Notes: a model not told the origin generated them from the letters alone. A stretch of 64,000 nt of DNA from Alphaproteobacteria bacterium (GCA_965243135.1 OZ251539.1:5824001-5888000); one strand, 5' to 3'; positions 13,745 to 55,639 are shown, counted from the first letter of the stretch. A program made the numbers and translations.

Positions 13745-13880
13745 GAAGGCAATGTAGTGGAGATCGGGCGCTCGGGAAACGCCGCGGATCCGGCAGGTTC
13801 GTCGCCTTCGTCCGGTCGGGTTCCTTGTCCGGCGCGATGGCGCCTGTTAAATCCTGCGCGCCTGCCCGACGAGGACATCC

Positions 13881-16243: not shown

Positions 16244-16289
16244 AGCGACGAAGAAGGACAGCCGAGATTGCCGATATGGAGTGAGATCT

Positions 16290-16900: not shown

Positions 16901-16992
16901 ACCAAGCGTAGAGTTCCGGTTTGCCGCCGCCGCCGGGGTCATGGGCGGAGCCCCGCAGCCACGCTTGGCGACTGGACGATCCGGTGCGCGTT

Positions 16993-40109: not shown

Positions 40110-40156
40110 GGCGAAACTCCATGCGGCGAAACGCGCGCAAGACGACGGAGAGGATA

Positions 40157-41263
40157 GTGACGACTATAGCGGTCGAGGACGACAAGATTCTGCGATCCCT
40201 TCAGGTTCTTCTGGATCCTGCGGTCGATCCGGCGCGGGTCGATGCGTTTCGGGACTATCTGTCGTTCGACGAGCCGGATCCGGACGGTTGGTTCGATACC
40301 GTGCGCGGACGCTCGGCGTCCATCTATCCCTGCAGCGTGGTCATGGTTCGCGACGAGGCCGAAATGCGCGCGGCATTGCGCGGCGCGAGCGCGGTCGTGA
40401 CCGAGAGCCTCAGAATCGGGGCGGGAGATCTCGCGCCCGGACTGAAGCTCGTCCAGAAATTCGGCGTCGACGCGCGGAACATCGACGCGGCCGCCTGCGA
40501 AGCCGCCGGCGTCGCGGTGCGCACCTTGCGGCGCAGGGTGAACGGCGCGGTGGCCGAACATGCGCTGCTTCTGATGATGGCGGTCGGACGCAAGCTGGTG
40601 GAGACCCACGGCGCCCTCGACTTCGCGACGCTGCGGTCGCTCGGGTATGCGCCGAAAACGTTCGACGGCCGCCATGTCGCGGGGGCGAACTGGGCGCGGA
40701 TAACGGGCCTCAAGAGCCTTCAGGGCGCCGCTCTCGGCATACTGGGTTTCGGCGAGACGGGACGCGAGGCGGCGGCGCGGGCGGCGGCCATGGGGATGGA
40801 CATCCTCTATCATCAGCGTTCGCGCGCGCCGGAAGGGGTCGAGGCGGCGTTCAACGCGCGATACGTCTCGTTCGGGGAACTGCTCGGGCGGGCGGATTTC
40901 GTCAGCGTTCACCTGCCTTTGAACGACTCTACCGAAGGCATGATCGATTCGGCCGCCTTCTCGCGCATGAAGCCGGGCGCCGTGCTCGTCAACGTTTCGC
41001 GCGCGCGGATCGTCGACCGCGGCGCGCTGATCGCCGCGCTCGACGAAGGAAGGCTCGGCGGGGCGGGGCTCGACGTCCATTACGAGGAGCCCGGCGCGCC
41101 GGACGAGCCGCTCAAGCAATACCGCAACGTGGTTCTGAGCCCGCACATCGCGGTCGGAGCGCGGCAGCACAACATGGCGGATATCGCTGAATTGGCTGCC
41201 TGTCTCGCGGACGGCCTGGATGACGGAAGCCATGCCTCCGACGGTCGAACCCGGGCAGGATAA
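40157..41263 (+). CDS. D-isomer specific 2-hydroxyacid dehydrogenase family
   Basis: VAEHA, GILGFGETG, VHLPLN, NVSRA, GLDV, SPHIA. Confidence 0.88.
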   Translation: MTTIAVEDDKILRSLQVLLDPAVDPARVDAFRDYLSFDEPDPDGWFDTVRGRSASIYPCSVVMVRDEAEMRAALRGASAVVTESLRIGAGDLAPGLKLVQKFGVDARNIDAAACEAAGVAVRTLRRRVNGAVAEHALLLMMAVGRKLVETHGALDFATLRSLGYAPKTFDGRHVAGANWARITGLKSLQGAALGILGFGETGREAAARAAAMGMDILYHQRSRAPEGVEAAFNARYVSFGELLGRADFVSVHLPLNDSTEGMIDSAAFSRMKPGAVLVNVSRARIVDRGALIAALDEGRLGGAGLDVHYEEPGAPDEPLKQYRNVVLSPHIAVGARQHNMADIAELAACLADGLDDGSHASDGRTRAG

Positions 41264-42393
41264 TCGGACCGAACCCGGAAAACGGCCATGATCCACAGAG
41301 AACACTTTTGGCGAGATCCAGATGCTGTCGGAACAGAAGCGGCAAGGACGCCCGCGAGTCAAAGTCGATCTTGAAGTAAGTTCCCGGCTTCGTGACGCAA
41401 CCTGCCGTGGGCACTATGGGCGCGATGATTGCCTGACTCTGGCCGTTGAAGCCGGGACTCGCCGGTTCTTCCTCGTTGTAGGGCGATAATTTTGCCATTA
41501 GATTTCTGGAAAATCGACTTGGAGAGCGAACTATGCGCGGACTTCCCAAGCGCATTATCGACCATGCTGCGGCCTTGGCTGCGCCGCCGTGTCCGGCTGG
41601 CCCGCTTCACCTCGGCAATCTCGCGGCAGTCGATCAGCGTTGTCTCGTTTCGCGCGATCAGGCGATCTGATGCGCGTTTGCCAAGGCGTGCGCCTGATCG
41701 AGATCCGTTTCGGTCTTCGGGCCCCCGCGACGGCAAGGCGCTCGCCACTCTGTCGTCGCTGTTGTCTTCTGCCGCCAAGAGCGGTGCCGCGGCGAGCGTT
41801 TGTCTGGGCACTGGTAAGATCTCGCGCGCCTCGACGAGGCAGGAATCGCTGCAAGGGCGCTCGCCTATCATGTCCTCGCGCTATCGGTTGTCCGCCGCAA
41901 GACGATGTTCTTTGCCGGGAACGATGCCCGCAGCGGGCGGGTCGCCTACGAGGCCGCGCCTCGGGATACCTTCGGCCCGTTCCCGAAGGGGTTGGGCGCA
42001 CGGTGTTCGCCGATGACTGCGCGAAGATGCTGACCGACAGCATGCCGCTCAACGAGAGCGAGCCGGAGCGGTGCGCGCAACCTGAGGCACGCGCCAACGT
42101 TCCGCGGTCGAGGAACAGCTGATGGAGGTATTCGCCTTTCGCGAAGAAAACGTCGGCAAATTCGAGCGGTTTTCGCGAAACTTCACAAACGCCCGAGCCG
42201 AGGACACCTCCCGCGAGGTCGATGCAGTCAGCATGTCCGCATGTTGGAAATCGACAGCGGTGCGCGAGCCGTCCTGTCACGCTGGCCGACTGCCGACTCG
42301 CTATCGTTCCAGAAGGAATGGAGCCCGCGCCGAGGCTGCAACGTGACCCGCACGGCCAAGAACCATGGCGCGGTAAAGCAGTCTCCTTAGACA

Positions 42394-45300
42394 ATGACGC
42401 GGAGTCCATCATCTGCCGACGCGGACGTCATTGTCGACAACCAAGAACGCAACGTAGCGGATTTCCTGCGCGACAGCATCGAGCCCGGGGCAGACCTGTC
42501 TTTCGTCTCGGCCTATTTCACGATCTACGCGTACGAAGCCATGCGCGATGCCCTGGAAACCGCTGGACGCATGCGCTTTCTCTTTGGCGAGCCGACGGCC
42601 GTTGGCGCGCCGGACCCCGGCGGAAACGAAGGCAAGTCTTTCCACCTGAACGAAGACGGCGACATGGCGCTGAAACAAGTCCTCGCCCAGAAGCCGCTGG
42701 CCCGCGCCTGCGCCGCCTGGATCCGGCGACAAGTCGAGATTCGAACGATCAAACGCGCCAATTTCTTACATGGCAAGCTCTATCACGTGGCACAAGCTGA
42801 CAAGACCGCGGCACTCGCCGGCAGTTCCAACTTCACTCTGCGGGGACTCGGCTTCGGCGCTACGCCCAATGTCGAGCTCAACCTGGACGTACGCCGCGAA
42901 GAGGATCGCACGGCACTTCTCGACTGGTTCGACGACTTGTGGCGCGATGAAGGCCTCACTCGCGACGCCAAGACCGATGTCCTTGCAGCGCTTGACCGAT
43001 TGGGCCGACCTTATTCGCCTGAGTTCGTCTATTACAAGACACTCTTCCATGTCTTCGAAGGCTGGCTGGAGAGACATGGCGAGCAAGACGGCCTGCTCCT
43101 CGACATCCATCTTCACGATACGGAGATTTGGAAAGCTCTCTATGCGTTTCAAAGGGACGGCGCGACCAGCGCGATCAACCGTCTTCTACGCCACAACGGC
43201 TGTATCGTCGCTGACAGCGTGGGCCTCGGAAAGACCTGGACGGCACTGGCCGTCATCAAGTTCTTCGAATTGCGCAACGAGCGGGTCCTTGTCCTCTGTC
43301 CCAAGCGGCTCGAAGATAATTGGGTCCGCTATACCGCTTGGGCAGCGTCACGCAACAACCCCTTCGAGAAGGACCGTCTGAACTACGCGGTGCGCGCGCA
43401 CACGGACCTCAGCCGTTACGACGGATGGGCCGGAGCGATCGATCTCGCCCAATTCAACTGGGGTTCGTTCGATCTGATCGTCATCGACGAATCCCACAAC
43501 TTCCGCAACGAAGGTCGGGATCGGCGGGACGACGCCGGCAACCTTGTCAGGCGTAGCCGCTACAACCGCCTGCTCGACGAGGCACTGAAGGGCGGAGTGC
43601 AGACCAAGGTGTTGATGCTATCCGCGACCCCGGTCAACACCAGCTTGCGAGACCTTCGAAACCAAATCTACCTCATGACCGAGAGGCGCGAAGACGCGTT
43701 TCGAGAAGCGCTTGGAATCGGAAACATCCAGTCGATGTTCGCCGTCGCTCAACGCGAGTTTCAGCAATGGGAAAAGACGCGTATCGGCGGCCGAAAACCG
43801 GATAAAGCGTCCCTTCTCGAAAGGCTTGGCGGGGACTTCCTGACTCTGCTCGACGCAGTGTCGTTCGCCCGCTCGCGCGAACATGTTCGCCGTTACTATC
43901 CCGAAGTGACGTCAGCCATTGGCGGCTTTCCACTGCGATCTCAACCGCGAAACCTGCATCCAGCGACGGACAGCGAGGGAGAGCTATCCTACGACGACCT
44001 TCATCGTCGCATCGGGAAATTCCAGCTCGCAGTCTACATGCCCTCACAGTATCTGAAGGATACGTCGATCCTGGACGAGGAGAAGGCGACACTGCGTTTC
44101 GACCAGCGGGACCGGGAGCGTTTCCTGATCGGCATGATGCGAGTCAACCTACTGAAGCGTTTGGAAAGCTCGGTGCATGCGTTCACGCTGACGATGCGCC
44201 GCATCCTGGACAAGATGGACAACCTTGATCGCGTGATCGAGGCATGGCGGGAACGCGGCGAGTCGGAAGAGATCGACTCGCGCCCGGACGAGGACGAGGA
44301 GGACGAGGAGTTTGCGATCGGAAAGGGACGGCGCTACCGGCTCGACGAGCTCGACGTCGAAAGATGGCAGCGGGACATTCACGAGGATAGGAAGGTTTTC
44401 GAGGAGTTGCACCGCCGGGCGGAGCAAGTCACCATAGATCGCGACGACAAGTTTGCAGAACTGAGACGGGTATTGAGGCGCAAAGTCGAGGAAGCGCCGC
44501 TCGACATGGATGGGCGCGCCAACCGCAAAGTGCTCGTATTCACTACATTCGCCGATACCGCACGCTATCTATACGGCCATCTTGAAGAATGGGTACGCGA
44601 CGAACTCGGCGTTCATATCGCTCTCGTCACCGGCGGCGACAGCAACCGGAGCACTGCGGGAACATCGCGGTTCATCGATATCCTGACGCGGTTCGCCCCG
44701 AGGGCACAGCAGGCGGAGAGCGAGAACGAAGAAATCGACATCGTCATCGCGACCGACTGCCTGTCAGAGGGCCAGAATCTTCAAGACTGCGATTTGGTGG
44801 TCAACTACGACATCCACTGGAATCCCGTGCGGTTGATGCAGCGATTCGGGAGGATCGACCGACTAGGGAGCCGCAACCGGCAGGTTGCAATGACTAATTT
44901 CTGGCCTACCGCTGACCTTGACCGCTATCTGGATCTGAAAAATCGCGTCGAGGCGCGTATGGCGCTTGCCGACGCCGCGGCGACCGGTCTAGACGACCCG
45001 CTCAATCGGGAGCGTCGGACCGAGGACGAGCAGAGAGAAAACGCGCAGATGGAACTCGCCTTCCGTGACCGGCAGCTGACCCGCATGCGCGAGGAGATTC
45101 TCGATGTTGAGGAGGCGGACGATGGCGTTGGCCTGAACGACCTTACGCTGGACGACTTCATCGCCGACCTGCTGCACTTTATCCAGCGAAACCGCGTTGC
45201 GCTTGAAGCCGCGCCGCTCGGCATTCATGCGGTCGTGTGCGAGAGCGCGGCGACCAGTTCGGACCGCCCACCGGAATCGGCGCGGCAGGGAGCGATCTTC

Positions 45301-45708
45301 TGTCTAAAGCATAAGGGCGCCCCGACAGCGAGAACGCCGAACAGGCTCTGGCCTTACTTCCTGGTGTATGTCCGAGATGACGGCAGCGTGCGCTACACTT
45401 TCCGGCAAGCTCGGCAATGTCTCGCCCTGTTCCAGGCGCTGGCCGCCGGACGGCCCGAGGCGGTATTGGCGTTGGAGGACGCCTTTGATCAAGAAACTGG
45501 CCAAGGCCGATGTATGGAAAAATATGATGATATGCTTGCCGCAGCGCTGCGCAGTATTGCCGGTACTTTCCGGGATGCAGAACTCGTCGGGCTGAGTCGA
45601 GACCGCGGAGCCGTGCTCACCGAGAAGTCGCAGCACCAAAAGCCAGCCGAGAATTTTACATTGATCACTTGGCTGGTCATTACCAATATCGAGGCACGAC
45701 CGCAATGA
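42394..45708 (+). CDS. SNF2-family helicase with N-terminal phospholipase D-like nuclease domain
   Basis: HGKLY...GSSNFT (PLD), ADSVGLGKT, DESHN, LSATP, SEGQNLQ, HWNPVRLMQRFGRIDR. Confidence 0.9.
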   Translation: MTRSPSSADADVIVDNQERNVADFLRDSIEPGADLSFVSAYFTIYAYEAMRDALETAGRMRFLFGEPTAVGAPDPGGNEGKSFHLNEDGDMALKQVLAQKPLARACAAWIRRQVEIRTIKRANFLHGKLYHVAQADKTAALAGSSNFTLRGLGFGATPNVELNLDVRREEDRTALLDWFDDLWRDEGLTRDAKTDVLAALDRLGRPYSPEFVYYKTLFHVFEGWLERHGEQDGLLLDIHLHDTEIWKALYAFQRDGATSAINRLLRHNGCIVADSVGLGKTWTALAVIKFFELRNERVLVLCPKRLEDNWVRYTAWAASRNNPFEKDRLNYAVRAHTDLSRYDGWAGAIDLAQFNWGSFDLIVIDESHNFRNEGRDRRDDAGNLVRRSRYNRLLDEALKGGVQTKVLMLSATPVNTSLRDLRNQIYLMTERREDAFREALGIGNIQSMFAVAQREFQQWEKTRIGGRKPDKASLLERLGGDFLTLLDAVSFARSREHVRRYYPEVTSAIGGFPLRSQPRNLHPATDSEGELSYDDLHRRIGKFQLAVYMPSQYLKDTSILDEEKATLRFDQRDRERFLIGMMRVNLLKRLESSVHAFTLTMRRILDKMDNLDRVIEAWRERGESEEIDSRPDEDEEDEEFAIGKGRRYRLDELDVERWQRDIHEDRKVFEELHRRAEQVTIDRDDKFAELRRVLRRKVEEAPLDMDGRANRKVLVFTTFADTARYLYGHLEEWVRDELGVHIALVTGGDSNRSTAGTSRFIDILTRFAPRAQQAESENEEIDIVIATDCLSEGQNLQDCDLVVNYDIHWNPVRLMQRFGRIDRLGSRNRQVAMTNFWPTADLDRYLDLKNRVEARMALADAAATGLDDPLNRERRTEDEQRENAQMELAFRDRQLTRMREEILDVEEADDGVGLNDLTLDDFIADLLHFIQRNRVALEAAPLGIHAVVCESAATSSDRPPESARQGAIFCLKHKGAPTARTPNRLWPYFLVYVRDDGSVRYTFRQARQCLALFQALAAGRPEAVLALEDAFDQETGQGRCMEKYDDMLAAALRSIAGTFRDAELVGLSRDRGAVLTEKSQHQKPAENFTLITWLVITNIEARPQ

Positions 45709-48700
45709 CTGACACACCGATCCATTCCCTGCACTCAGCGCTGGTCGATCTCGCAGGCCCGAATCCATTGCGAGCTGGAGCGGCGGAATTGCTGAACATC
45801 CTCGGTTACCGGAGCGACCGGACAGCGGATGCAGGCAGCGTCGAGGAATTTAAGAAACGCTTCGCGACCGATAGCGAGCTGACCGAAAAGCAGCGTGATT
45901 TGTTCGACTCATGGACCGCCGTCGACATCGTGTATCAGTTCACCTTAGAAGAGGTAGCCCGGCAATCCGAGCCGTTCGAGACCGCTAGCTTCGATAAGAG
46001 CCGGATCAAGTCTTTCCTGTTCCTTGCCGTGGACATGTCGGGCGACGCCTACGCGCGTACGTATTTGGCGGAAACGACCCGCACCGTGAATCGCCTCTTC
46101 GCAATGCCGGTCATCCTTCTATTTCGTCACGGTTCGACCTTGACACTTGCCACCATCCATCGGCGCGCTCACAGGCGGGACGATGACCTCGACGTGTTGA
46201 CCAAGGTTACGTTGGTCAAGGACATCCGCATCCACAGTCCGCACCGCGCCCATATCGAGATTCTTTCCGACCTCGCTTTCCCTCGCATGGTCAAGTCGGG
46301 CGTCAGCAGTTTCGACGGCCTGCACGCGGAGTGGGAACGGACGCTCGACATCGAAACGTTAAACAAACGTTTCTACCGCGAGCTGTTCTCCTGGTTCGAG
46401 CGGGTAGTCGCCGAGTGCCGCTTCCCTAACGACGGCGCAGGGGAAGGCGGTGCAGAACGGCATGTCATCCGGTTGATCACACGCCTTCTCTTTATTTGGT
46501 TTCTGAAGGAGAAGGGTCTAATACCCGAAGAATTGTTCGAGGAAAAGTTCGCTCGTTCCACGCTAAGGAATCATGCGCCGGAGCGGACAGACTACTACCG
46601 CGCAATCCTGCAAAACTTGTTCTTCGCCACCTTGAACACCGAGATCTGCAGACGACGTTTTGGCAGTCAAGGGGAACCGGAGAAACCTGAATTCAACGAA
46701 TATCGCTACCGCGACCTTCTGGCCGATCCGGACGCCTTTGCCAAAAGCCTGCAGGAGGTCCCGTTCGTAAATGGCGGGCTGTTCGATTGCCTGGACGATT
46801 TCGCAGCCGTCAGCTCGGACGGCGGGCTGGTCGACGCTTTCGCAGACGATCCGGTCCACCACAGAGAATTGTGCGTTCCTGCGCGCCTGTTTTTTGACGA
46901 GAAAGGACTGTTCGCGTTCTTCCGACATTACAAGTTCACGATCGAGGAGGGCACACCGCTCGACCGAGAGGTCGCTCTCGACCCCGAACTTCTAGGCCGC
47001 GTTTTCGAGAATCTTCTGGCTGCCTACAATCCGGAAACCCGCGCAACCGCCCGTAAAGCCACTGGCTCCTATTACACGCCCCGACCGGTGGTGGACTACA
47101 TGGTCCGTGAAGCTCTCACCGAGGCTCTAGCGGCCGTTACCAAGCCAGCGGACGGCGATATCGAATCCTGGCGCGACCGGCTCGAATATCTTCTCGACCA
47201 TTCCTCTGCGATGGACGACGCCGACAAATTCTTCAAAAAATCCGACAGGCGTGCCGTCGTGTCTGGCATCGCGGAGATTCGAACGCTCGATCCCGCGGTC
47301 GGTTCCGGGGCATTCCCTATGGGTATCCTTCAAACCCTCACCTTGGCGCTGCGCCGTCTTGACCCCGACAACGCGCTTTGGGAGGAAATTCAAAAGGAAC
47401 GAGCCATGGCGCGAGCCAGGCATGCGTTCGACACTCCGGACCAGACGTCGCGAGACGAAGCGCTGCGCGAAATCAGCGAGACATTTGAAAAATACCGGCA
47501 GTCGGACTTCGGCCGGAAGCTTTACCTCATTCAGAACGGCCTCTACGGCGTGGACATTCAGCCGATTGCCTGTCAGATCGCCAAACTGCGGGTTTTCATC
47601 TCGCTGCTCATCGAACAGCAGTCCGCCCCTGGTTTGCCAAATCTCGGCATCAAGCCGCTACCCAACCTGGAGACGCGACTGGTCGCCGCCGACAGTTTGC
47701 TCGACCTAAAGGCCGAAGCCACCGATCTGCTTCACGAGGACGCCTTGACGTCGAAGCAAAGGGAGATTGCGGCCGTACGCGAGCGTTACTTCCTGGCCGA
47801 CAGTCGGCCAATGAAACTCGACTGCATGCGGGAGGAGAAACGACTGCGCGGCGAATTGCGGCAGATTCTGGAGGCGAACCGCCGGGACTGGGTCGCAGCC
47901 CAAGAGCGGGATATCGAAAGCACGGCGGCGAGATTTCCCAACGAGGACGCACGCGAAACGTTCCGGGAAGAAGAGCGGCGCGAGCTCGCTCGACGGCTAT
48001 GCAAGTACGATAGGACTTTGGCCAGCGCCCGCATGATTGCCGAATGGGATCCGTACGATCAAAATGCCCACGCCGCTTGGTTCAACGCCGAGTACATGTT
48101 CGGTATTCACGAGGGTTTCGACGTAGTGGTCGGGAACCCGCCCTACATTCAGCTGCAAAAGGATGGCGGTTATGCCGGGAAATTCTACGCTGGTGCCGGA
48201 TATGAGACTTTCCAGAAAACGGGCGACATTTATCAGCTCTTTTACGAGCGCGGTTGTGGACTGCTCAAGCCGCAGACGGGCGTGTTAGCCTACATTACTT
48301 CCAACAGTTGGATGAAGGCGGAATACGGCAAACCACTTCGCCGGTGGTTCGCGGAACGCCACACGCCTCTGCAACTGATCGAATTGGGAAAGAACGTCTT
48401 CGAGAATGCGATAGTCGACACGGCGGTGCTGGTTGTCAGGAACGACAAGGACCAGCCTGTAACATGTCGCGCGGTGGATATCGAGGAGGAATCAGATGAC
48501 CGATTCCCACCGCTCAAACGAAACTGGGGGACGCTGCAACCGGAAGGTGAGAGGCCATGGATGGCTCTTTCCCAAGTCGAGCGGGCCATCATGAAAAAGA
48601 TGGAATCTGTTGGCACGCCGCTAAGGGAGTGGGATATCTCCATTTACTATGGAATAAAGACCGGCTGCAATGACGCGTTTGTTGTGGAAACCGCGGTGCG

Positions 48701-49381
48701 GGATCGGCTGATCAACCAAGACCCGGCCTCGGAGCAAATACTTAAACCGATCCTCCGAGGCCGCGATATAGCGCGTTACCATGCAAACTGGGCAGGACTG
48801 TGGCTGATTGATACGCACAACGGCTACGATGGCAATTACTCCCGATCGACGTCAACGATTATCCCGCGGTGAAAGCACACTTGGATAAATTCATTCGACG
48901 CCTTGAGCATCGTCAAGACCAAGGCGTCACGCCCTATAATCTCCGTAATTGCGCTTACCATGAGGATTTCAAAGGTCCCAAGCTCCTGTGGAAGGAAATG
49001 ACAGACCAAGGTTCCTTCGCATACAGTGAGACGGAGGTTTACACAAACAACAAAGCCTATATGATGACTGGCGAGCACCTGAGGTATCTTTGTGCTGTAC
49101 TAAACGGATCAGCCATATCTTGGCTGGTGGCAAAAATCGGGCTGACCACCGGAATGGGACTCATCCAATGGACGAAATTCGTTGTCGAGCAGATACCGAT
49201 TGTTCGACCTGATGAGCAGACGTTGCAGATCATCGGAGATAAGGTCACGCGTCTGACCGCCTCTCTAGATGCTGGAGATAAGCAGGAAGCCTTGGTAATC
49301 CAAGCCGAAATCGACAGCGATGTTTGCGAGCTATACGGCTTGTCAGGTCGACAAATCAAGGCATTGCGTAGAGCGAAGTAG
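45705..49381 (+). CDS. Eco57I/Type IIG-like N6-adenine methyltransferase with TaqI_C-like TRD (allele A); 1-nt frameshift at ~48840
   Basis: GSYYTP, LDPAVGSGAF, YGVDI, GNPPY; frame breaks at DGNY / PIDVNDYPAVKAHLD; ATGA-coupled to the helicase. Confidence 0.88.
48638..48808 (+). repeat. 171-bp inverted repeat, left copy (inside the MTase gene)
   Basis: Exact reverse complement of 49975-50145 by base-by-base comparison. Confidence 0.95.
48946..48962 (+). repeat. 17-bp nested inverted repeat, left copy
   Basis: TAATTGCGCTTACCATG; reverse complement at 49795-49811; both copies encode NCAYH. Confidence 0.85.
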
Positions 49382-49794
49382 CTCTTCTAATTCCCTTTTC
49401 TCCTCCTTTGTGATGCCGTAGCTCTCATACACGATGGCTTCGATCTCCGGTTCGATTTCCTGAAAATATGCACTACCCTCATCTAATTCTCTACGCAGTA
49501 AATCGTCGACAAGACCTTCAAGGTGAAGGCCTTCTGGAACGGACTTTGGTACAGGGATTCCTTCTACCACATACGCGATCCACCTCGCGGTTCCCATTCC
49601 GGATGTCACCGCTGTCTTGTTCACATACCAAGTGATCAGAGATGAGTTTAGAAAGGCAGCCAACTGCTTCAGCAATGGGCCACGCATAACGTACGCAGTA
49701 TTGGCACAAAACATCTCTGCTCCGGCGGGTGCGTAGGAAAACCTGCCCTCTGGAGTTAAATCCATCCAAAATAGCTTCTCTTCGGAAAACTGTG

Positions 49795-49811
49795 CATGGT
49801 AAGCGCAATTA
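49795..49811 (-). repeat. 17-bp nested inverted repeat, right copy
   Basis: CATGGTAAGCGCAATTA. Confidence 0.85.
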
Positions 49812-49974
49812 TCTTGAGAGTTCGTACCACGCATTGGATGTCTTCTTCCTTGACCGACCTCCTCCTGGCAATCGGCGTCCTTCCTGTGCCAACCGTTCTT
49901 TGCCAAAAGACAATAGATGTCGCTTGATCGCCGGATAATTGTCGATGTCCAGATTGAGGGACGGAAACGTCGAT

Positions 49975-50145
49975 ATCAGCCACAGTCCTGCCCAGTTTGC
50001 ATGGTAACGCGCTATATCGCGGCCTCGGAGGATCGGTTTAAGTATTTGCTCCGAGGCCGGGTCTTGGTTGATCAGCCGATCCCGCACCGCGGTTTCCACA
50101 ACAAACGCGTCATTGCAGCCGGTCTTTATTCCATAGTAAATGGAG
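49975..50145 (-). repeat. 171-bp inverted repeat, right copy
   Basis: Exact reverse complement of 48638-48808. Confidence 0.95.
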
Positions 50146-50156
50146 GTATCGACGAA

Positions 50157-51090
50157 GGTAATGTCACGACTTTATGTGTGAGAAAGAAAAGGGTGGTTAT
50201 TTCTTGTTGTGTAACGTACCCCAAGCCGCAGGCCGCACGACAACGCCCCGCAAATCGAGAATTTTTTCGCGGCAGCGCTCGCCGTTCAAGAGCTCGGGAG
50301 CGCGACGCCGAGGGCACGCCCTGTTTTCACGCCGCGCTGTTCGTGCTCGGAACGTTATGTCGCAGCATGATAGCGGTGCGCGTCCAGAGGTCCCATACTC
50401 AAGGTTGCACGCTACAGGGCGGCAGCCGCCGATCATGAGCGTTTGTCTTGGGAGGCGCCCATGGGGCAGGTTCGTCGCCGAACCTCGCGGAAACGGCACT
50501 CAATGACGTTTGTAGTGCTGACCTGTTGGCGCTGGTCTGTGTATCAGAAGCAGGCCGGCAGGAGATCGTCGCGCAAGTAGGCGGCGGTCTTGGGGTAGAC
50601 ATCTTGCACGCGTCTGGCTAAACGCTCGGCGGCGCGCCGGGCCTTGGTGCGGTCGAGGGCGAAAGCGTGGAGATCCCGCTGACGGCCGGGCTTTGCGAAC
50701 CTTGTCGATGACCTTCCTGAGCTTGTGCGCTCAGCGGCGCTGGACCGGGATTCCAACGGTGGTCAAGGCTGCCATCGAGCCTTGACCACCGTCGATGCAG
50801 ATCATCTCCAGACCTTCGCCGGTCAACCCACGGGCAAAGAAAGAAGTGTTTCCGCAACGCTCTCGGCTCTCACGCCCCTCAATGATCTCCGCCAAGACCG
50901 GCGGCCCAGAGGGCGGTAGCCCTCGCTCCAGTCCAGCCCTTCGGTTCGCATTGCCTTCACGACCTCGAATCCCTCCTGTAGGTTCTTGATCGTCGCAGTC
51001 TTCAGCATCGGGGTGCTCCTTATTCGTGATTGTCGCCTGACCGCAGCGAGTGCCTCTTTTCCCGGCTGACACATAATTTGATACATCACC
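50157..51090 (-). mobile_element. Decayed IS256-family element
   Basis: Ends GGTAATGTCACGACTTTATGTGT and (rc) GGTGATGTATCAAATTATGTGT; flanks ATCGACGAA/ACCGACGAA; transposase fragments GLEMICIDGGQG, IECRFREVRRRT. Confidence 0.8.
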
Positions 51091-51144
51091 ACCGACGAAC
51101 CGGATGTCCTACTGCGCCCCTTGCCTCAATAGGGGGATTATCGC

Positions 51145-52101
51145 ATGAACTATCCGCATAACGCGGCAGACTTGGAGCACTGCGCCGGCGCTGTCCGAAA
51201 AGCCGCTCATTCAGAAAATACGCGGACAGCGTATGAGAAGGGCTGGCAATGCTTCATCGCATGGTGCCGGAGCGTAGATTTGGTTCCGCAAAAGGCCGAG
51301 TCGGATGATGTCGTCAGGTTTTTGGTCGCGATGGCGAGCGAGGGCACGGCTGGCGGCAAGAAGCCGCTCGCGCTGAATACGCTTAGGCTCTATCGCAGTG
51401 GCCTGAATGACCAATGGCGTCGGATGGGGGCGCCTTCGCCCGCTTCCGCGAGGATGGTAGACGAGGTACTGCGAGGCTTGGCGAAAATCCACGGCGACGC
51501 CCCGCGCCGGGTAAAGGCTCTCAGGGAGTATCAGATTCGCGCGATGCTGAAGTCATGCGGCGGAGGCCTGCATGGACTTCGCGACGCAGCAATCCTGGCG
51601 TTGGGTTTCGCGGCAGCGCTCCGGAGATCGGAGTTGTGCTGCCTGCGGATGGAGGATCTCGAACGCAAGGGCGCCGAGGGCATGATGATTCACGTTCGAC
51701 GGTCGAAGACGGATCCGCAAGGAATCGGACAAAGGGTGGCGGTCATTGAGGGCAAGGTCATCAAGCCGATTGCGCACGTGGAACGCTGGCTAAGCGCATC
51801 CGGCGTTAGCGCGGGGTTCGTTTTTCAGACCCTACTGGCCGGCGGAGTGGCGTCAGGTCGGCCGCTCGATCCAGGCGATGTCGCGCGGGTGGTAAAGCGC
51901 CATGCCCGCAGAATTGGACTCAATCCGCGAGATTACTCCGGGCACTCCCTGCGGGCCGGGTTCGTAACTTGCGCAGCGGTGCACCACGCGAGGATCGACA
52001 AGATCATGGAGGTGACCCGACACAGGAACGCCGAAACCGTGTTGAAATACGTTCGCGACGAGGAGTCATTCGTCGATCATGCGGGTGCTTCGTTTCTCTG
52101 A
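51145..52101 (+). CDS. Tyrosine recombinase/integrase (Cre/Xer-like)
   Basis: SENTRTAY N-terminal domain; catalytic R (LRRSEL), K (RSKTD), HSLR, RH, Y (LKYVR) all present. Confidence 0.92.
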   Translation: MNYPHNAADLEHCAGAVRKAAHSENTRTAYEKGWQCFIAWCRSVDLVPQKAESDDVVRFLVAMASEGTAGGKKPLALNTLRLYRSGLNDQWRRMGAPSPASARMVDEVLRGLAKIHGDAPRRVKALREYQIRAMLKSCGGGLHGLRDAAILALGFAAALRRSELCCLRMEDLERKGAEGMMIHVRRSKTDPQGIGQRVAVIEGKVIKPIAHVERWLSASGVSAGFVFQTLLAGGVASGRPLDPGDVARVVKRHARRIGLNPRDYSGHSLRAGFVTCAAVHHARIDKIMEVTRHRNAETVLKYVRDEESFVDHAGASFL

Positions 52102-52364
52102 CGGCGACACTGCGCGAACTCTTCAAAGCGGTCGAGGACAGCGTGTGGCGGCGCTCTCGCCATGAGGTAGGATCTCCTTCTCGCCGTCGGGGCGCAGGCC
52201 GAGAGCCCCAGCACCGGAGGCATGAGGGTGCCGGTCCGGCGGCTGAGCGCCACGCCGTCGAACGACGGAGCCTTGTAGTCGTTGGCCGGCGGGCGGCGCG
52301 CCTCCACCGCGCTGTCCAGGATCTTGGCGGCCCGGCGGACGATGCCCTGCGCGCCGCCGGCTTG

Positions 52365-52937
52365 CTAATCCCGCAAAAACGGACGTATCGCTTCCTTGAA
52401 CTCGCGGCGGCGCTCGGCGCTGTGAAGCCAGTCGTAGTCGAACGGCGGCGTATCGTCCGCTTCGACCCTGAGCGTCGCGAACGCCGGCCCCGGTTCCGAC
52501 AGCAACCCGGGAAGATCCGCCCCGAAACGGTCGATATCTTCGTACGTCCGCGCGACCGGATATCCGGCCGCGAGCGCCATCCCGGCGAATTCGATCCTGC
52601 CGCGGCCGGGAATCGGGTGTCCGCCGTTGGCTTCGTAAGTTCCGTTCTCGACCGCGAAATGCACCAGATTGCGCGGCGCGGCTTCGGCGATCGTGACGAG
52701 GCTCGACAGATTCATGAGCAGGCTGCCGTCGCCGTCCAGAACGATGATCCTGTGGTTCGGCAGGCCCAGGGCCAGCCCGAGACCGTGCGAGGACGCTTGT
52801 CCCATGGCTCCGATCCCGACGAAATTCAGCGGATTGGGGTCTATGCGTTGCCATTCGAAGGCGGACGTATAAGTCGCCACCACAACCGCGTCGTCGCGAA
52901 GCGCGGCGATTTTCCGGAAGCATGCCGTTCGCCGCAT
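52365..52937 (-). CDS. TPP-dependent decarboxylase beta subunit (ComE/phosphonopyruvate decarboxylase-like)
   Basis: GAMGQAS, LDGDGSLLMNL...EN TPP motif. Confidence 0.85.
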   Translation of the reverse strand: MRRTACFRKIAALRDDAVVVATYTSAFEWQRIDPNPLNFVGIGAMGQASSHGLGLALGLPNHRIIVLDGDGSLLMNLSSLVTIAEAAPRNLVHFAVENGTYEANGGHPIPGRGRIEFAGMALAAGYPVARTYEDIDRFGADLPGLLSEPGPAFATLRVEADDTPPFDYDWLHSAERRREFKEAIRPFLRD

Positions 52938-53446
52938 CACGGGCGAACGCTCCTGCCGATCAGCGCCGCCAGCGGCCGGGACCGCGCGTAGGCGCGATCG
53001 ATCGCCGGCGCCAGCTGCGCGACGTCTTCCGATCCCTCGATCAACAAGCGGTCGATCTCCATCGCGTCCAGCACCGGCTCGACGATTCGCACGCCGTAAC
53101 TCGCGGATTCGCTCGGCGCGCGGTCGGGTTCCTTGCCGAGCAGGCCGACCAGCATGCAGACCGGTTGCCGGTACTGAACGGCGATGGCGCGGACGGCGTT
53201 GAGGGAATCCATCAGCCCCGTCTGTTGCATCAACAGCACGGCCCGCTTGTCGCAGAACGCGAGGGCGGCGCATATCGATACGCCTTCGTCCTCCTTGCAG
53301 AGGCGGACGAGGCGAATGTTTTCTTCCCTCGACAGCGGCCAGAGCAGTCCGGCGCTGGTCGTGATGTCCGGCAACGCCGCGACATGGGTGACGTTCGCCT
53401 GTTTCAGCGCCTCGATGATTTCCGCGCCGCGCGGTCCGGCGTTCAT
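52937..53446 (-). CDS. TPP-dependent decarboxylase alpha subunit (ComD-like)
   Basis: LPDI, KEDEGVSICAAL, LMQQTG. Confidence 0.82.
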   Translation of the reverse strand: MNAGPRGAEIIEALKQANVTHVAALPDITTSAGLLWPLSREENIRLVRLCKEDEGVSICAALAFCDKRAVLLMQQTGLMDSLNAVRAIAVQYRQPVCMLVGLLGKEPDRAPSESASYGVRIVEPVLDAMEIDRLLIEGSEDVAQLAPAIDRAYARSRPLAALIGRSVRP

Positions 53447-53452
53447 CGCGTC

Positions 53453-54247
53453 TCAGGCGGCGACATGCGGGAGAAAATCCTCCAGCGCGGCGTTGACGGC
53501 GGCCGGGTTCTCCAGATTCGAGATGTGTCCGGCGCCTTCGACGACAACGTGGCGGCAACCCGGAATGACGGCCGCGGCCTCCGCGAGGACGTCCGGCGGC
53601 GCGCCCTTGTCCCTGTCGCCGCCGAGAATCAGGGTCGGAATCCGGATGTCGCCGATGACCGCCCCGAAGGAAAGCCGCTTCAGCGCCTCGCAGCAGCCTT
53701 CGTGTCCGACCGGGTCGGTCCTCCGCAACATGCCGCGAACTTTGTTCAGGAACGCGGGAGCCGCTTGCCGCGTCTCCGGCGTGAACCAGCGCTCGATCGT
53801 CGGTTCCACGATTCCTTCCATTCCCTTTTTCCTGACCGTGTCGATGCGGTACTGGAAATAGTCGGCGTAGTCCGGCGGCGCGTCCGGCCGCGCGTCGCAG
53901 GCCACGAGCGACGACAGCCGGCCGCCGTGATGCCGGGCAAGGCCGTAGCCCAGCATGCCGCCGATGGAAAGCCCCACCCAGTGCGTTCTGGCGATGCCGA
54001 AATGGTCGAACAACGCGATGACGTCTTCCATCAGGTCGTCGAAGGAATAGGGGCCGGGCGGCGCGTCCGAGCCGCCGTGCCCGCGGTGGTCGAAGCGCAG
54101 GATCCGGAAACGGTCGGCGAACAGCGCCGCCTGTTCGTCCCAAAGATGCAGGTCGTTGCCCAGCGCATGGCTGAACGTGATCCACGGCGCGCCTTCGACG
54201 CCGTCGACCGCGCAGTTGACGGAGAATTTTCCGATATCGACCTTCAC
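53453..54247 (-). CDS. Alpha/beta hydrolase (PcaD-like)
   Basis: FDHRGHGGS, GLSIGG, TIERWFT, AGHISNLE. Confidence 0.85.
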   Translation of the reverse strand: MKVDIGKFSVNCAVDGVEGAPWITFSHALGNDLHLWDEQAALFADRFRILRFDHRGHGGSDAPPGPYSFDDLMEDVIALFDHFGIARTHWVGLSIGGMLGYGLARHHGGRLSSLVACDARPDAPPDYADYFQYRIDTVRKKGMEGIVEPTIERWFTPETRQAAPAFLNKVRGMLRRTDPVGHEGCCEALKRLSFGAVIGDIRIPTLILGGDRDKGAPPDVLAEAAAVIPGCRHVVVEGAGHISNLENPAAVNAALEDFLPHVAA

Positions 54248-54344
54248 GCGGCGCTGCCTCTCCTTATCGTCCCGCTTGCGGGAGCGCGGCGCCGAAGCCG
54301 CCGCCCGTTCCGCTGCGCCGGGGTCGCGCGCTGCGGGTCGGACT

Positions 54345-55049
54345 TCAGTTCTGGCTTCGGGTTTCCACCAGTTTCCAGTTGGGGTCCCGCGACCTGACGT
54401 CGCGGCGGAAGGTCCAGATGTCCGTGATTTCGTTCACGTGAGAGGGGTCGCCGTCCAGGATCCGGCCTTCGGAGTCGCGGGTCACGTTGATCTGCTCGGT
54501 CAGGAAGCTGACGGTGACGGCGGCGTCGCCGTCGACGAGATCCGCCTCGACGATTTGCGCGGACCTCGTTCCGATGATCGTCGTTTCCAGGACGTGTCCG
54601 TCCGCCTTGCGCTGCTCGATGGCGTCGCTGAAGTTTTCGTAAACGTCCTCCGACAGCAAGTCCCGCAGGGTGTCGGCGTCGCCTTCGGCGAACGCCTGCA
54701 CGATCACGTCGAACGCTCCGCGCGCGCCCGTCAGGAATTCGTCCGGATCGAAGGCGCGGTCGGCGTTCCTGATGTTCGCGATGCCTTGCGATATCGGATC
54801 GTCGGGATCCGCGTACTCGTCCTCGGCCTCCGCGTCCTCGGCCGCCGCGTCCTCGGCCTCCGCGTCCTCGGCCTCCGCGTCCCGGTCGGCGGGCGGAGGC
54901 TCGGGCGCGCGGTCGTCGGGCGGCGGCGCGATCGAACGCGGTCGCTGATGGCCCGTCCGTTTGCCGAGCGCGCTTCGCAGGCGCAGCACGAGAAACGCCG
55001 CGACCATGGCGAAGAGCACGATATCTAGGAACTGGAATCCGTCACTCAT
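54345..55049 (-). CDS. Tim44/TimA family adaptor protein
   Basis: LRLRSALGKRTG, FLTGARGAF, DIWTFRRD..NWKL; 15-bp acidic repeats at ~54818-54880. Confidence 0.9.
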   Translation of the reverse strand: MSDGFQFLDIVLFAMVAAFLVLRLRSALGKRTGHQRPRSIAPPPDDRAPEPPPADRDAEAEDAEAEDAAAEDAEAEDEYADPDDPISQGIANIRNADRAFDPDEFLTGARGAFDVIVQAFAEGDADTLRDLLSEDVYENFSDAIEQRKADGHVLETTIIGTRSAQIVEADLVDGDAAVTVSFLTEQINVTRDSEGRILDGDPSHVNEITDIWTFRRDVRSRDPNWKLVETRSQN

Positions 55050-55224
55050 GATCCAGCTTTCCGCACGCCTCCGCTACGTGGACCGGCGCCTCGCCGTTCG
55101 GGTGGACGCGCCCCTGGCTTGGCGGTATTCTGCCTCTGCGCGTCGCGTCGGCTTGGGGAGTTTCCTCCGGCCGGAGCGTGCAACGTTTCATTGCAATATA
55201 TGCCGACTGCGGAAAATCGCAAGC

Positions 55225-55632: not shown

Positions 55633-55639
55633 GCCGCCG

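What the first reader, a model, noticed from the sequence alone, without database searches (positions are those of the whole stretch)
42394..52101. Putative specificity shufflon: helicase-coupled Type IIG-like MTase with an invertible two-allele TRD and an adjacent tyrosine recombinase
Seen: 48638-48808, inside the MTase gene, is the exact reverse complement of 49975-50145. The 1166 bp between the repeats carry two homologous but divergent TaqI_C-like C-termini tail to tail (A on +, ending 49381; B on -, ending 49343). Inversion would join B to the MTase in the same reading frame at WAGLWLI. An intact tyrosine recombinase follows. Known: TRD inversion switches methylation specificity in Type I hsdS loci (Streptococcus pneumoniae SpnIII/ivr, Mycoplasma pulmonis, Bacteroides) and has been reported for some Type IIG genes. 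Inference: this is a phase-variable defence/epigenetic switch in a PLD-SNF2 + MTase architecture; I do not know a characterised example of that combination in alphaproteobacteria.
Basis: partly seen in the sequence, partly recalled or inferred. Interest (0 to 1): 0.92.

Follow-up and report, generated by a model that had tools for sequence, protein, structure and literature searches.

The report
Invertible specificity switch in restriction system
A DNA-methylase gene paired with a helicase-nuclease carries two swappable DNA-recognition ends and its own flipping enzyme, so cells can probably change which DNA sequence they mark; the design is real and widespread, but a very similar one is already published.

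Summary
A 171-nt exact inverted repeat (48638-48808 / 49975-50145) brackets two tail-to-tail TaqI_C-type recognition domains. It lies behind a PLD-SNF2 helicase gene and an Eco57I-type N6-adenine methylase gene, and an intact tyrosine recombinase follows.

The window's frameshifts in both alleles look like assembly errors. Contigs from every public run that covers each site (4 of 4 runs; 3 of 3 for the silent allele) restore both frames. The methylase then reads 1224 aa.

Comparative evidence supports real inversion:
- A congener has the same cassette in the opposite orientation.
- Repeat arms are identical within a genome but about 75% alike between genomes.
- In 73 related loci, the inverted arm and the recombinase co-occur 10 of 10 and 0 of 63.

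A second, inner repeat at the CAYH motif (48946-48962 / 49795-49811) re-assorts only the variable core among close relatives. This implies four possible C-termini.

Coexisting orientations in one population could not be shown, because the contigs cannot bridge the repeat.

The architecture is already published. Milman et al. 2023 confirmed inversions by long reads in a Type II RM gene behind a PLD+SNF helicase gene. I file this as a new member of a known kind, of moderate interest. The cassette is spread across many phyla of MAGs, many of them typical sponge-symbiont lineages.

The parts
42394..45708 (+). PLD (single HKD motif) + SNF2 helicase, 1104 aa; the presumed translocating nuclease subunit
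   Evidence: Pfam PLDc_2 1.5e-06, SNF2-rel_dom 2.1e-07, ResIII, Helicase_C 2.9e-14. PADLOC PDLC01075 'HKD+Snf2' 3.9e-111. The HxK...GSxN, GLGKT and DESH motifs are readable in the translation. NCBIfam DrmD scores 149.8 bits against a cut-off of 610.
45705..49381 (+). N6-adenine DNA methylase with a C-terminal recognition domain. It is 1224 aa once the three window-vs-read differences at 48836/48837/48844 are taken into account. The ATG overlaps the helicase stop codon (ATGA).
   Evidence: Pfam Eco57I 6.7e-34 and N6_Mtase 1.6e-08. PADLOC REase_MTase_IIG 2.6e-118. The DPAVGSGAF and NPPY motifs are in the translation. The frame is restored by the differences seen in 4 of 4 runs. The G002 ortholog is intact at 1206 aa.
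48638..48808 (+). Outer inverted repeat, left arm. It encodes the conserved start of the recognition domain (...YYGIKTG...WAGLWLI).
48809..48945 (+). Variable segment V1, D-type (begins DTHNGY, 46 aa), in the expressed position
48946..48962 (+). Inner inverted repeat, left copy, at the CAYH motif
   Evidence: The public contigs of X6 and X7 end and begin here (48962 and 48949), and X9 and X10 contigs begin at 48949.
48963..49381 (+). Variable core V2, allele A (TaqI_C core plus C-terminal helix), in the expressed position
   Evidence: Pfam TaqI_C 1.4e-09. It is 39% identical to core B.
49343..49794 (-). Variable core V2, allele B, in the silent position
   Evidence: Pfam TaqI_C 4.8e-06
49795..49811 (-). 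Inner inverted repeat, right copy
   Evidence: X6 and X7 contig ends fall at 49808 and 49795.
49812..49974 (-). Variable segment V1, S-type (begins STFPS, 55 aa), in the silent position. The window has one extra letter at 49818.
49975..50145 (-). Outer inverted repeat, right arm
51145..52101 (+). Xer-like tyrosine recombinase, 318 aa; the presumed dedicated invertase
   Evidence: Phage_integrase 1.4e-14. The R, K, HxxR, H and Y catalytic positions are invariant in 10 of 10 family members aligned. Homologs are present in 10 of 10 loci with an inverted arm and in 0 of 63 without.

Best explanation
This is a two-protein restriction-modification-like defence module whose DNA specificity is switched by site-specific inversion.

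The module. The first gene encodes a PLD nuclease domain fused to an SNF2 translocase. The second gene is translationally coupled to it and encodes a gamma-class N6-adenine methylase whose C-terminus is a TaqI_C-type recognition domain. That domain has four parts: a conserved start (zone 1), a variable segment V1, a conserved CAYH motif (zone 2), and a hypervariable core V2.

The silent copy. A promoterless second copy, running from zone 1 to the stop codon, lies tail to tail on the other strand.

The switch. The adjacent Xer-like tyrosine recombinase recombines the two zone-1 copies (171 nt) and probably also the two zone-2 copies (14-17 nt). An outer inversion swaps V1 and V2 together. An inner inversion swaps V2 only. 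Up to four methylase C-termini can therefore be expressed (D-A, S-B, D-B, S-A), and at least two recognition specificities are expected.

Shown here: the anatomy; intact frames in read-derived contigs; both arrangements among relatives; strict linkage of recombinase and repeat; and a modelled contact between the helicase tail and the methylase N-terminal domain.

Inferred: that inversion is ongoing in this strain; that the recombinase, rather than RecA, catalyses it; that A and B recognise different sequences; and that the PLD-SNF2 protein cuts unmethylated DNA.
For: 1. Anatomy.

2. Both alleles are intact in public data. 4 of 4 runs from 2 studies carry the three differences that reopen allele A, and 3 of 3 covering runs carry the one that reopens B. 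This gives frames of 1224 aa and 275 aa without stops. A silent copy kept open argues that it is used.

3. The same-genus genome G002 has the same cassette: helicase, an intact 1206-aa methylase, a 203-nt repeat at 98%, 1167 nt between the arms, and a recombinase 74% identical that abuts the arm. There the S-type V1 is expressed and the D-type is silent, the reverse of the window.

4. The arms are identical within each genome but only about 75% alike between the two genomes. This is concerted evolution.

5. Of 73 related loci with at least 2.6 kb downstream, 10 have an inverted copy of the methylase end. All 10 have a homolog of this recombinase 3-2023 nt beyond the arm. None of the other 63 has one. 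An eleventh such locus, L060, lies on a short contig.

6. In 13 loci where both positions can be read, D is expressed in 7 and S in 6. Twelve of the 13 hold one D and one S.

7. Core re-assortment. The window and L094 are D-A | S-B. L014 is D-B | S-A. L095 is 93% identical in DNA to L094 over the recombinase and arm, and has S-A in the silent position. An inner inverted repeat at CAYH is present in 8 of 12 loci, and lies within a longer repeat in a ninth.

8. In X6 and X7 the contigs end and begin at both copies of the inner repeat (..48962; 48949-49808; 49795..). X9 and X10 contigs also begin at 48949. With 31-letter words, which I assume for these contigs, that is expected only if other junctions also exist in the reads.

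9. The window's wrong letters in the D segment match the S segment at the aligned positions (alignment score 29 against 18). This would follow if flipped molecules entered the long-read consensus.

10. The catalytic R-K-HxxR-H-Y positions are invariant in 10 of 10 recombinases.

11. Cores A and B are 39% identical over 137 aa.

12. Complex model of the methylase N-terminal domain (1-440) with the last 250 aa of the helicase: score 0.72, best of 3 controls 0.00. That mark was reached by 58 of 80 solved complexes and 2 of 110 mismatched pairs. The runs agree in at least 44% of contacts and the partner's pLDDT is at least 52. My own alignments were used, so these counts hold only roughly.

13. 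A locus of the same architecture was confirmed by long reads in Bacteroides ovatus (PMC9881135; passages).
Against: - No read or contig bridges the 171-nt repeat, so no orientation was counted in any population. None of the 5 joints listed changes strand; all 5 are 'skips'.
- By my own hand arithmetic on the depth table, the window-type junction at the inner repeat carries about the full depth (roughly 190 of 155-216 in X6). Any alternative junction is therefore a minority, and was not itself seen.
- The contig start at 48949 is 3 nt inside the 17-nt repeat. That fits only if the true S segment differs from the window near 49809, which I could not see.
- The inner repeat coincides with a conserved protein motif and could be conservation alone.
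- Orientation differences between species could be old events.
- Restriction itself is not shown. No nuclease was found in the methylase, and the PLD domain has a single HKD motif.
- No methylation data were available.
- The outer 113 nt of the repeat has an unexplained depth deficit in the contigs.
Confidence: 0.75

Rival explanations
1. Epigenetic switch only. The methylase acts as a phase-variable regulator (a 'phasevarion') and the PLD-SNF2 protein does not restrict DNA. Inversion changes gene expression rather than defence.
For: No nuclease domain was found in the methylase. No restriction assay exists. Switching specificity in a restricting system risks self-cleavage. 21 of 75 related loci with enough upstream DNA have no helicase in the upstream flank, so the methylase can apparently stand without it there; the downstream side was not examined for all loci.
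Against: The helicase and methylase genes overlap by ATGA, or by 8 nt in G002. The helicase is upstream in 54 of 75 loci and directly adjacent in 36. The HKD, Walker A and DESH motifs are intact. The modelled tail-to-domain contact scores 0.72 against 0.00 for controls. The best PADLOC models are defence-type.
Confidence: 0.13
2. Frozen relic. The repeat and silent copy stem from an old duplication. Inversions happen only rarely, by general (RecA) recombination, and the recombinase plays no part.
For: 171 nt is long enough for RecA. No within-population heterogeneity was seen directly. Orientation differences were seen only between species or between 93%-related populations.
Against: The silent frames are open in the window (from reads), in G002 and in the other loci. 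The arms are homogenised within genomes. The recombinase is linked 10 of 10 against 0 of 63, and its catalytic residues are conserved. D and S are expressed about equally often, 7 to 6. The inner repeat of 14-17 nt is too short for efficient RecA exchange, yet cores are re-assorted among close relatives.
Confidence: 0.09
3. The recombinase is the integrase of the roughly 11-kb island (or a stray Xer paralog) and is beside the repeat by accident.
For: It sits at the island's edge. The island has lower G+C (55-61% against 64-69% in the flanks) and lies between housekeeping-type genes. In the window it is 995 nt from the arm.
Against: It is absent from all 63 related loci that lack the inverted arm. 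It lies 3-292 nt from the arm in 10 of the 11 loci with an arm, the eleventh being at 2023 nt. At 318 aa it is Xer-sized. The 995-nt spacer in the window holds an inserted dispersed repeat.
Confidence: 0.02
4. Assembly artefact. The inverted duplication does not exist in the organism.
For: The window assembly has at least four wrong letters within the invertible segment.
Against: Independent contigs from X6 and X7 cover both inner junctions (repeat to D segment, and repeat to S segment) and both outer junctions. The same structure is present in G002 and in 10 other genomes.
Confidence: 0.01

Closest known systems
Programmed-inversion loci of Type II RM genes 'homologous to Cj0031' next to a PLD+SNF helicase CDS (Bacteroides ovatus CP083813.1:5322008-5329826; also CP044495.1), Milman, Yelin and Kishony, NAR 2023 (PMC9881135; passages read)
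   Same: A PLD+SNF2 CDS lies immediately upstream of a large Eco57I-type methylase CDS. The C-terminal part of that CDS is altered by inversion between inverted repeats. The family was reported to reach three phyla.
   Different: The host lineage and habitat differ: an alphaproteobacterial genome, with relatives in MAGs of many phyla. Sequence homology to the B. ovatus genes was not tested here, because that record is not in the collections I could read. The conserved D/S pair of V1 segments and the CAYH inner repeat are described here; I did not see them in the passages I read. The paper's supplements were closed.
Type I hsdS shufflons, such as Streptococcus pneumoniae SpnD39III (ivr) with its tyrosine recombinase (PMC4948785 and PMC7096588: abstracts seen in the listing; repeat lengths recalled)
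   Same: Recognition-domain halves are exchanged by a neighbouring tyrosine recombinase acting on several inverted-repeat pairs of very different length, including one of about 15 bp (recalled). The result is several methylation specificities.
   Different: Here the recognition domain is fused to the methylase rather than being a separate HsdS. There is no HsdR; the motor-nuclease is a PLD-SNF2 protein.
BREX type 1 PglX inversion locus of Lacticaseibacillus rhamnosus (PMC9881135, passages)
   Same: A large PglX-type methylase is altered by nested inversions with an adjacent recombinase.
   Different: PglX there keeps a constant C-terminus and needs two inversions. The window's methylase is below the NCBIfam PglX cut-off (71.7 bits against 500), and no other BREX gene lies in the island.
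Class 1 DISARM (DrmD SNF2 helicase, DrmMI methylase, DrmC PLD, DrmA, DrmB)
   Same: The same three activities appear (SNF2, PLD, N6-adenine methylase). The helicase's second-best PADLOC hits are DrmD (1.1e-38).
   Different: There is no DrmA or DrmB (DUF1998) gene in the island. PLD and SNF2 are fused. The DrmD score of 149.8 bits is below the cut-off of 610.
Type ISP restriction enzymes (LlaGI, LlaBIII; recalled, not looked up)
   Same: Nuclease, translocating motor, methylase and recognition domain act as one unit on an asymmetric site. This is the likeliest analogy for how the module works.
   Different: Those enzymes are single polypeptides with an Mrr-type nuclease and a different SF2 motor. 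Here there are two proteins, with PLD and SNF2.

Membership tests
Gene-altering programmed inversion locus (shufflon) as defined by Milman et al. 2023 | An inverted-repeat pair overlaps a long target CDS and a short oppositely oriented partial CDS of the same family | tested here: met
Gene-altering programmed inversion locus (shufflon) as defined by Milman et al. 2023 | Coexistence of variants in long reads of one sample | not testable with these tools
   Only short-word contigs of public runs could be laid, and none bridges the 171-nt repeat. The only indirect hints are the contig breaks at the inner repeat and the consensus errors.
Gene-altering programmed inversion locus (shufflon) as defined by Milman et al. 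2023 | A recombinase is encoded nearby | tested here: met
   51145-52101; linkage 10 of 10 against 0 of 63
Milman class (b): Cj0031-homolog Type II RM gene with a PLD+SNF helicase neighbour | An immediately adjacent CDS with PLD and SNF2 domains | tested here: met
Milman class (b): Cj0031-homolog Type II RM gene with a PLD+SNF helicase neighbour | Sequence homology of the target CDS to C. jejuni Cj0031 or the B. ovatus gene | not tested
   Neither sequence was available in the collections I used. Only the shared Eco57I / IIG-type models were seen.
Type IIG restriction-modification enzyme | Endonuclease and methylase domains in one polypeptide | tested here: inconclusive
   There is no Pfam nuclease hit in the methylase. 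The AlphaFold model of residues 1-440 (pLDDT 76) has 0 Foldseek PDB matches at E<=0.001. PADLOC IIG models match mostly the methylase and recognition part.
Type IIG restriction-modification enzyme | A gamma-class N6-adenine methylase core followed by a C-terminal recognition domain | tested here: met
   Eco57I 6.7e-34 and TaqI_C 1.4e-09. NPPY and the AdoMet-binding motif are in the translation. The nearest solved sequences are CamA 9.6e-08, BseCI and TaqI.
Class 1 DISARM | DrmA and DrmB (DUF1998) genes, and DrmD above the family cut-off | tested here: not met
   Between the flanking housekeeping-type genes, only the helicase, methylase, recognition copies and recombinase gave family hits. DrmD scores 149.8 bits against a cut-off of 610.
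BREX type 1 | PglX above the cut-off, together with PglZ, BrxC and the other BREX genes | tested here: not met
   BREX_1_MTaseX scores 71.7 bits against a cut-off of 500. No further large genes lie in the island.
Tyrosine recombinase superfamily | A catalytic R-K-H-R-H/W-Y set and the Phage_integrase fold | tested here: met
   Pfam 1.4e-14. All six positions are invariant in 10 of 10 aligned members. The protein is below the cut-off of every curated Xer or invertase NCBIfam model, so it is not a member of those named subfamilies.
Type I hsdS shufflon | Separate HsdS, HsdM and HsdR genes | tested here: not met
   There is no HsdS-type gene. The only trace is a weak PADLOC Specificity_I hit at 0.00099 on allele A. 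The locus works like one but is not one.

The most novel reading that the evidence does not exclude
The cassette is a four-state (2 V1 x 2 V2) specificity shufflon of a two-protein PLD-SNF2/methylase restriction system, and it travels by horizontal transfer as one unit: helicase, methylase, silent copy and dedicated invertase. It occurs in symbionts of many phyla, many of them typical sponge-associated lineages, and natural symbiont populations hold mixtures of its states. On this reading the universally paired D and S segments are not mere linkers. They would be a functional two-form module, for example setting the reach or register of the recognition core. That would be a new layer of combinatorial specificity in fused methylase-recognition proteins.
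Probability: 0.3. Interest if true: 0.65.

Novelty: new member of a known kind. Interest (0 to 1): 0.45.

Why it matters
Switchable specificity lets a clonal population hedge against phages that have acquired the current methylation mark. It also reshapes the cell's own methylome.

The principle, and this very gene architecture, are already in print. The value here is narrower, and lies in four points:
1. The locus is a clean, compact example. It has two repeat pairs and a conserved D/S segment pair, which suggests four rather than two states.
2. It has a well-defined invertase family that is strictly linked to the repeat.
3. It shows that the cassette is shared by uncultured symbionts of many phyla. 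This bears on gene flow and phage pressure in host-associated communities.
4. It gives a practical warning. Invertible segments can leave false frameshifts in long-read consensus assemblies, and automated annotation would then call the gene a pseudogene.

Tried and rejected
- Read-level orientation count. They break at every repeat boundary and cannot link flank to allele, and no strand-changing joint was listed. The orientation question stays open.

- Unexplained depth pattern. The 143-nt contig covering the outer part of the repeat has about 1x depth or less (119.6 in X6, 43.4 in X7). The inner 58-nt piece has about 2x (412 and 81.8). Both flank contigs stop 10 nt into the repeat. This suggests a second version of the outer roughly 100 nt in the read sets, but I could not see it.

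- Same-species contigs in the metagenome collection. 4 loci were found at 60-79% recombinase identity, none from the same species. They were still useful for comparison.

- Relatives by DNA. Of the 40 other genomes searched, 6 had a match, but only G002 matched the methylase and repeat part. The other 5 matched only the spacer at 50.4-51.1 kb.

- Rfam scan of 40000-56000 at E<=0.01: 0 matches.

- Fold of the methylase N-terminal domain: 0 PDB matches at E<=0.001. Sequence search against solved structures found nothing for that domain either.

- A hairpin-like palindrome inside the repeat (48724-48763) was considered as a recombinase site. I rejected it because it is not conserved in G002.

- A shared 8-mer in both repeat zones and the rare Ala codon GCT at the CAYH motif. 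GCT is used in 9 of 10 shufflon loci and 15 of 26 other loci where a simple pattern found the motif, against 11% of Ala codons overall. The motif was not found by that pattern in 39 loci. I keep this only as a lead, because both features are tied to conserved residues.

- The extra inverted repeats around the G002 locus are copies of a Mutator-family IS, not a second shufflon.

- Literature searches. One search (Type ISP / SNF2 / PLD / methyltransferase / two-gene) returned 0 papers. In one search (sponge / symbiont / restriction-modification / inverted repeats / phase-variable), none of the 10 papers listed out of 18 concerns such a cassette in sponge symbionts. The BREX survey PMC12839542 (passages) had nothing on inversion. 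'C3a139' is only a cluster label for HKD+Snf2 proteins found near type III CRISPR loci (PMC6546367, one passage).

- The supplements of PMC9881135 (its homolog list) were closed. They may already list relatives of this locus.

Full report
**1. The observation**

The repeat finder on 42000-53000 reports one outstanding inverted repeat. Its arms are 48633-48808 and 49975-50150, 176 nt at 99% complementarity, with 1166 nt between them. All other inverted pairs in the region are 20-28 nt at 71-87%. An exact-match script gives 171 identical letters at 48638-48808 / 49975-50145. The organism's single-contig 6.1-Mb genome holds only these two copies.

Stop-to-stop frames and Pfam show the gene order:
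- a PLD + SNF2 helicase at 42394-45708;
- an Eco57I / N6_Mtase methylase that begins at the ATG at 45705, which overlaps the helicase stop codon;
- two tail-to-tail TaqI_C frames, A on + ending at 49381 and B on - ending at 49343;
- a Phage_integrase frame at 51145-52101.

The coordinates and the description are correct.

**2. The frameshifts are not real**

In the window the methylase frame stops at 48872, 64 nt past the repeat, and allele A continues in another frame. Allele B also changes frame near 49818.

I laid the contigs of four public runs on 45600-52200. They were X6, X7 and X10 of one study and X9 of another, and these are contigs, not raw reads. All four differ from the window at 48836 (one letter fewer), 48837 (T>G) and 48844 (one letter fewer). 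The three runs that cover 49818 have one letter fewer there. X6 and X7 show no other difference over the 6.6 kb.

With these differences the methylase frame 45705-49381 is 1224 aa without a stop, and the silent frame is open for 275 aa. The ortholog in G002 is intact at 1206 aa. The best holder runs may come from the same material as the assembly, so this is a correction of the consensus rather than independent strains.

All the wrong letters lie in the 1166-nt invertible segment. In the D segment they turn the sequence into what the S segment has at the aligned positions (alignment score to S of 29 for the window against 18 for the read version). This is what a consensus built from a mixture of flipped and unflipped molecules would look like. 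It is a hint, not a proof.

**3. What the genes are**

Helicase:
- It carries one HKD motif, a Walker A motif (GLGKT) and a DESH motif, all readable in the translation.
- It matches PADLOC model PDLC01075 'HKD+Snf2' at 3.9e-111 over nearly its whole length. That label comes from a list of proteins found near type III CRISPR loci (PMC6546367, one passage).
- Its score for DISARM DrmD is 149.8 bits against a cut-off of 610.

Methylase:
- It has the AdoMet-binding motif and NPPY.
- It hits PADLOC 'REase_MTase_IIG' at 2.6e-118.
- It scores below the PglX cut-off, 71.7 against 500.
- Its nearest solved relatives by sequence are CamA (9.6e-08, aligned through the recognition domain), BseCI and TaqI.
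- Its first ~440 residues have no Pfam family.
- An AlphaFold model of residues 1-440, built from 28 homologs, has pLDDT 76 and pTM 0.70. It found no PDB fold at E<=0.001.

No nuclease is therefore shown in the methylase, and 'Type IIG' membership is unproven. The only nuclease-type domain in the module is the PLD domain of the helicase.

Complex model. I modelled the methylase N-terminal domain with the last 250 residues of the helicase. The score was 0.72 and the best of 3 controls was 0.00. That mark was reached by 58 of 80 solved complexes and 2 of 110 mismatched pairs. The runs agree in at least 44% of contacts and the partner's pLDDT is at least 52. My own alignments were used, so these counts hold only roughly. 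The contact joins a short stretch near the helicase C-terminus (piece residues 206-225, about helicase 1060-1079) to a surface of the N-terminal domain. Together with the ATGA overlap, this supports a two-subunit enzyme. It does not show binding.

Recombinase. It is Xer-like and below the cut-off of every curated NCBIfam subfamily. Its six catalytic positions are invariant in 10 of 10 aligned family members.

Island. It spans roughly 41.3-52.3 kb, between a 2-hydroxyacid dehydrogenase gene and a TPP-enzyme gene. G+C is 55-61% in the island, 49.5-51% in the invertible segment and 64-69% in the flanks.

**4. Evidence that the segment inverts**

(a) A congener in the opposite orientation. G002, a genome of the same genus, has the same cassette: helicase, methylase, a 203-nt repeat at 98%, 1167 nt between the arms, and a recombinase 74% identical that starts 3 nt beyond the arm. 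The segment that follows WAGLWLI comes in two types. The D type begins DTHNGY and is 46 aa. The S type begins STFPS and is 55 aa. The window expresses D and keeps S silent; G002 does the reverse.

(b) Concerted evolution. The two arms are identical within each genome but only about 75% alike between the two genomes.

(c) Recombinase linkage. A scan of one genome per species found 516 relatives of the methylase, and the best 80 loci were kept. Of the 73 with at least 2.6 kb downstream, 10 carry an inverted copy of the methylase end. All 10 have a homolog of this recombinase, at 44-79% identity and 3-2023 nt beyond the arm. None of the other 63 has one. An eleventh case, L060, lies on a short contig.

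(d) Both states are common. Both positions can be read in 13 loci: the window, 10 genome loci and 2 metagenome loci. D is expressed in 7 and S in 6. Twelve of the 13 hold exactly one D and one S. The exception, L092, has D in both positions and an insertion. In L089 the expressed copy is broken.

Roughly equal use of the two states, silent frames that stay open and homogenised arms are the marks of a working switch. They are still not a direct observation in one population.

**5. A second, inner switch point**

The V1 segments are conserved within type across phyla (50-89% identity) and about 30% identical between types. The V2 cores after the CAYH motif are hypervariable (22-67%).

The window and metagenome locus L094 pair D with an A-like core and S with a B-like core. 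L014, the closest full relative (helicase 74%, recombinase 79%), pairs D with a B-like core (59% to B) and S with an A-like core (53% to A). L095 is 93% identical in DNA to L094 over the recombinase and arm, and has S with an A-like core in the silent position. This is exactly the product of an inversion between the two CAYH motifs.

The window has a 17-nt exact inverted repeat there (48946-48962 / 49795-49811). Exact repeats of 14-43 nt at the same motif occur in 7 of the 11 other loci, often running on into residues that vary between genomes but agree between the two alleles of one genome. In an eighth, L092, the motif lies inside a 337-nt repeat. L018, L023 and L046 have none of 12 nt or more.

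In the contigs of X6 and X7, the pieces end and begin at both copies of this short repeat (..48962; 48949-49808; 49795..). X9 and X10 contigs also start at 48949. I assume these contigs are built from 31-letter words. A 14-17-nt repeat should break such a contig only if alternative junctions are also present in the reads.

By my own arithmetic on the depth table, the window-type junction carries about the full depth, so any alternative is a minority. The alternative junction pieces themselves were not among the rows shown. The 3-nt offset (48949, not 48946) fits only if the true S segment differs from the window near 49809. One unlisted mismatch near those contig ends is compatible with that, but I could not see it.

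I therefore rate the inner inversion as likely in evolution and possible in these populations.

**6. How it most likely works**

Shown:
- the parts;
- open frames in read-derived contigs;
- both arrangements among relatives;
- linkage of recombinase and repeat;
- a modelled helicase-methylase contact.

Inferred from established knowledge of gamma-class methylases with TaqI-type recognition domains, of PLD nucleases, and of translocating restriction enzymes (Type I, III and ISP; recalled, not looked up):
- The methylase reads a short target through its C-terminal domain and marks adenine.
- On unmarked DNA the complex loads the SNF2 motor.
- The PLD domain, probably as a dimer because it has one HKD motif, cuts.
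- The recombinase exchanges the recognition domain at zone 1 (V1 + V2) or zone 2 (V2 only), giving up to four C-termini.
- A and B, at 39% identity over 137 aa, should read different sequences.

Whether D and S matter for specificity is open.

**7. Comparison with what is known**

Milman, Yelin and Kishony (NAR 2023, PMC9881135; I read passages found by term search, not the whole text, and the supplements were closed) list 22 long-read-confirmed inversion loci. [quoted passage not shown] For that locus, repeat-bearing homologs were found in three phyla. A second locus has the helicase downstream. [quoted passage not shown]

This locus works like the Type I hsdS shufflons and like the PglX and DISARM-like inversion loci of that paper. 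It fails the membership tests for BREX, DISARM and Type I, and is unproven for Type IIG.

**8. What is new**

Four things are modest additions:
- the conserved D/S pair and the CAYH inner repeat;
- the strict recombinase linkage;
- the modelled subunit contact;
- the distribution.

On distribution, the 80 best loci come almost entirely from MAGs titled Poribacteria, Latescibacterota, Dehalococcoidia/Chloroflexota, Longimicrobiales, Entotheonella, Spongiihabitans, and Alpha- and Gammaproteobacteria, among others. Many of these are known to me as sponge-symbiont lineages.

The inverting form occurs under record titles that span at least seven phyla; the phylum assignment of the named classes is from general knowledge. 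One search for sponge-symbiont shufflons in the paper library listed nothing relevant (18 papers held the terms and 10 were listed).

**9. Verdict**

This is a real, well-preserved invertible specificity cassette. It is most likely active and has two switch points, in a two-protein PLD-SNF2/methylase module. It is a new member of a known kind, and interest is moderate. Direct proof of switching needs long reads.

Noticed in passing
window 50204-50447: A roughly 245-nt dispersed repeat lies between the right repeat arm and the recombinase gene. A search with the 994-nt spacer 50151-51144 gave 49 matches in the own genome, about 44 of them other copies of this element at 69-81% identity. Rfam finds no family for it. 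In G002 the recombinase abuts the arm, so this element looks like an insertion.
   Followed up: partly
window 50445-51090: The rest of the spacer matches multi-copy sequences (67-76% identity) in genomes of other genera of the same order: G029, G036 with at least 4 places, and G039. G001 and G003 of the same genus match only its last 200 nt or so (50874-51092). It is probably another small mobile or repeated element. I did not characterise it.
   Followed up: no
window 48836-48844 and 49818: The assembly's consensus errors in the 6.6 kb examined all cluster inside the invertible segment, and they create false frameshifts. Invertible loci in long-read assemblies may be systematically mis-called as pseudogenes.
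   Followed up: partly
window 48638-48808 / 49975-50145: In the public contigs the outer 143 nt of the repeat has about 1x depth or less, while the inner 58 nt has about 2x. Both flank contigs stop 10 nt inside the repeat. A second version of the outer part may exist in the sampled populations. This remains unexplained.
   Followed up: partly
L013 (G002) 452-3402 and 13237-17001: The G002 copy of the cassette is flanked by several inverted copies of a Mutator-family IS element (repeats of 81-254 nt at 92-100%; Pfam Transposase_mut). This suggests IS-mediated mobility of the whole module.
   Followed up: partly
L063, L070, L038 and L029/L042/L058 (related loci): Some MAG loci carry two methylase paralogs of this family within 17 kb, or a second partial copy directly after the helicase. 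One Poribacteria genome appears three times among the 80 loci (L053, L068, L070) and another twice (L061, L063), so the family is multi-copy in some symbionts.
   Followed up: no
CAYH motif codons in 36 related loci: The Ala of the CAYH motif uses the rare codon GCT in 9 of 10 inverting loci and 15 of 26 non-inverting loci where the motif was found. GCT is 11% of Ala codons across these genes. This may be a nucleotide-level constraint at the inner switch point. The simple pattern did not find the motif in 39 loci.
   Followed up: partly
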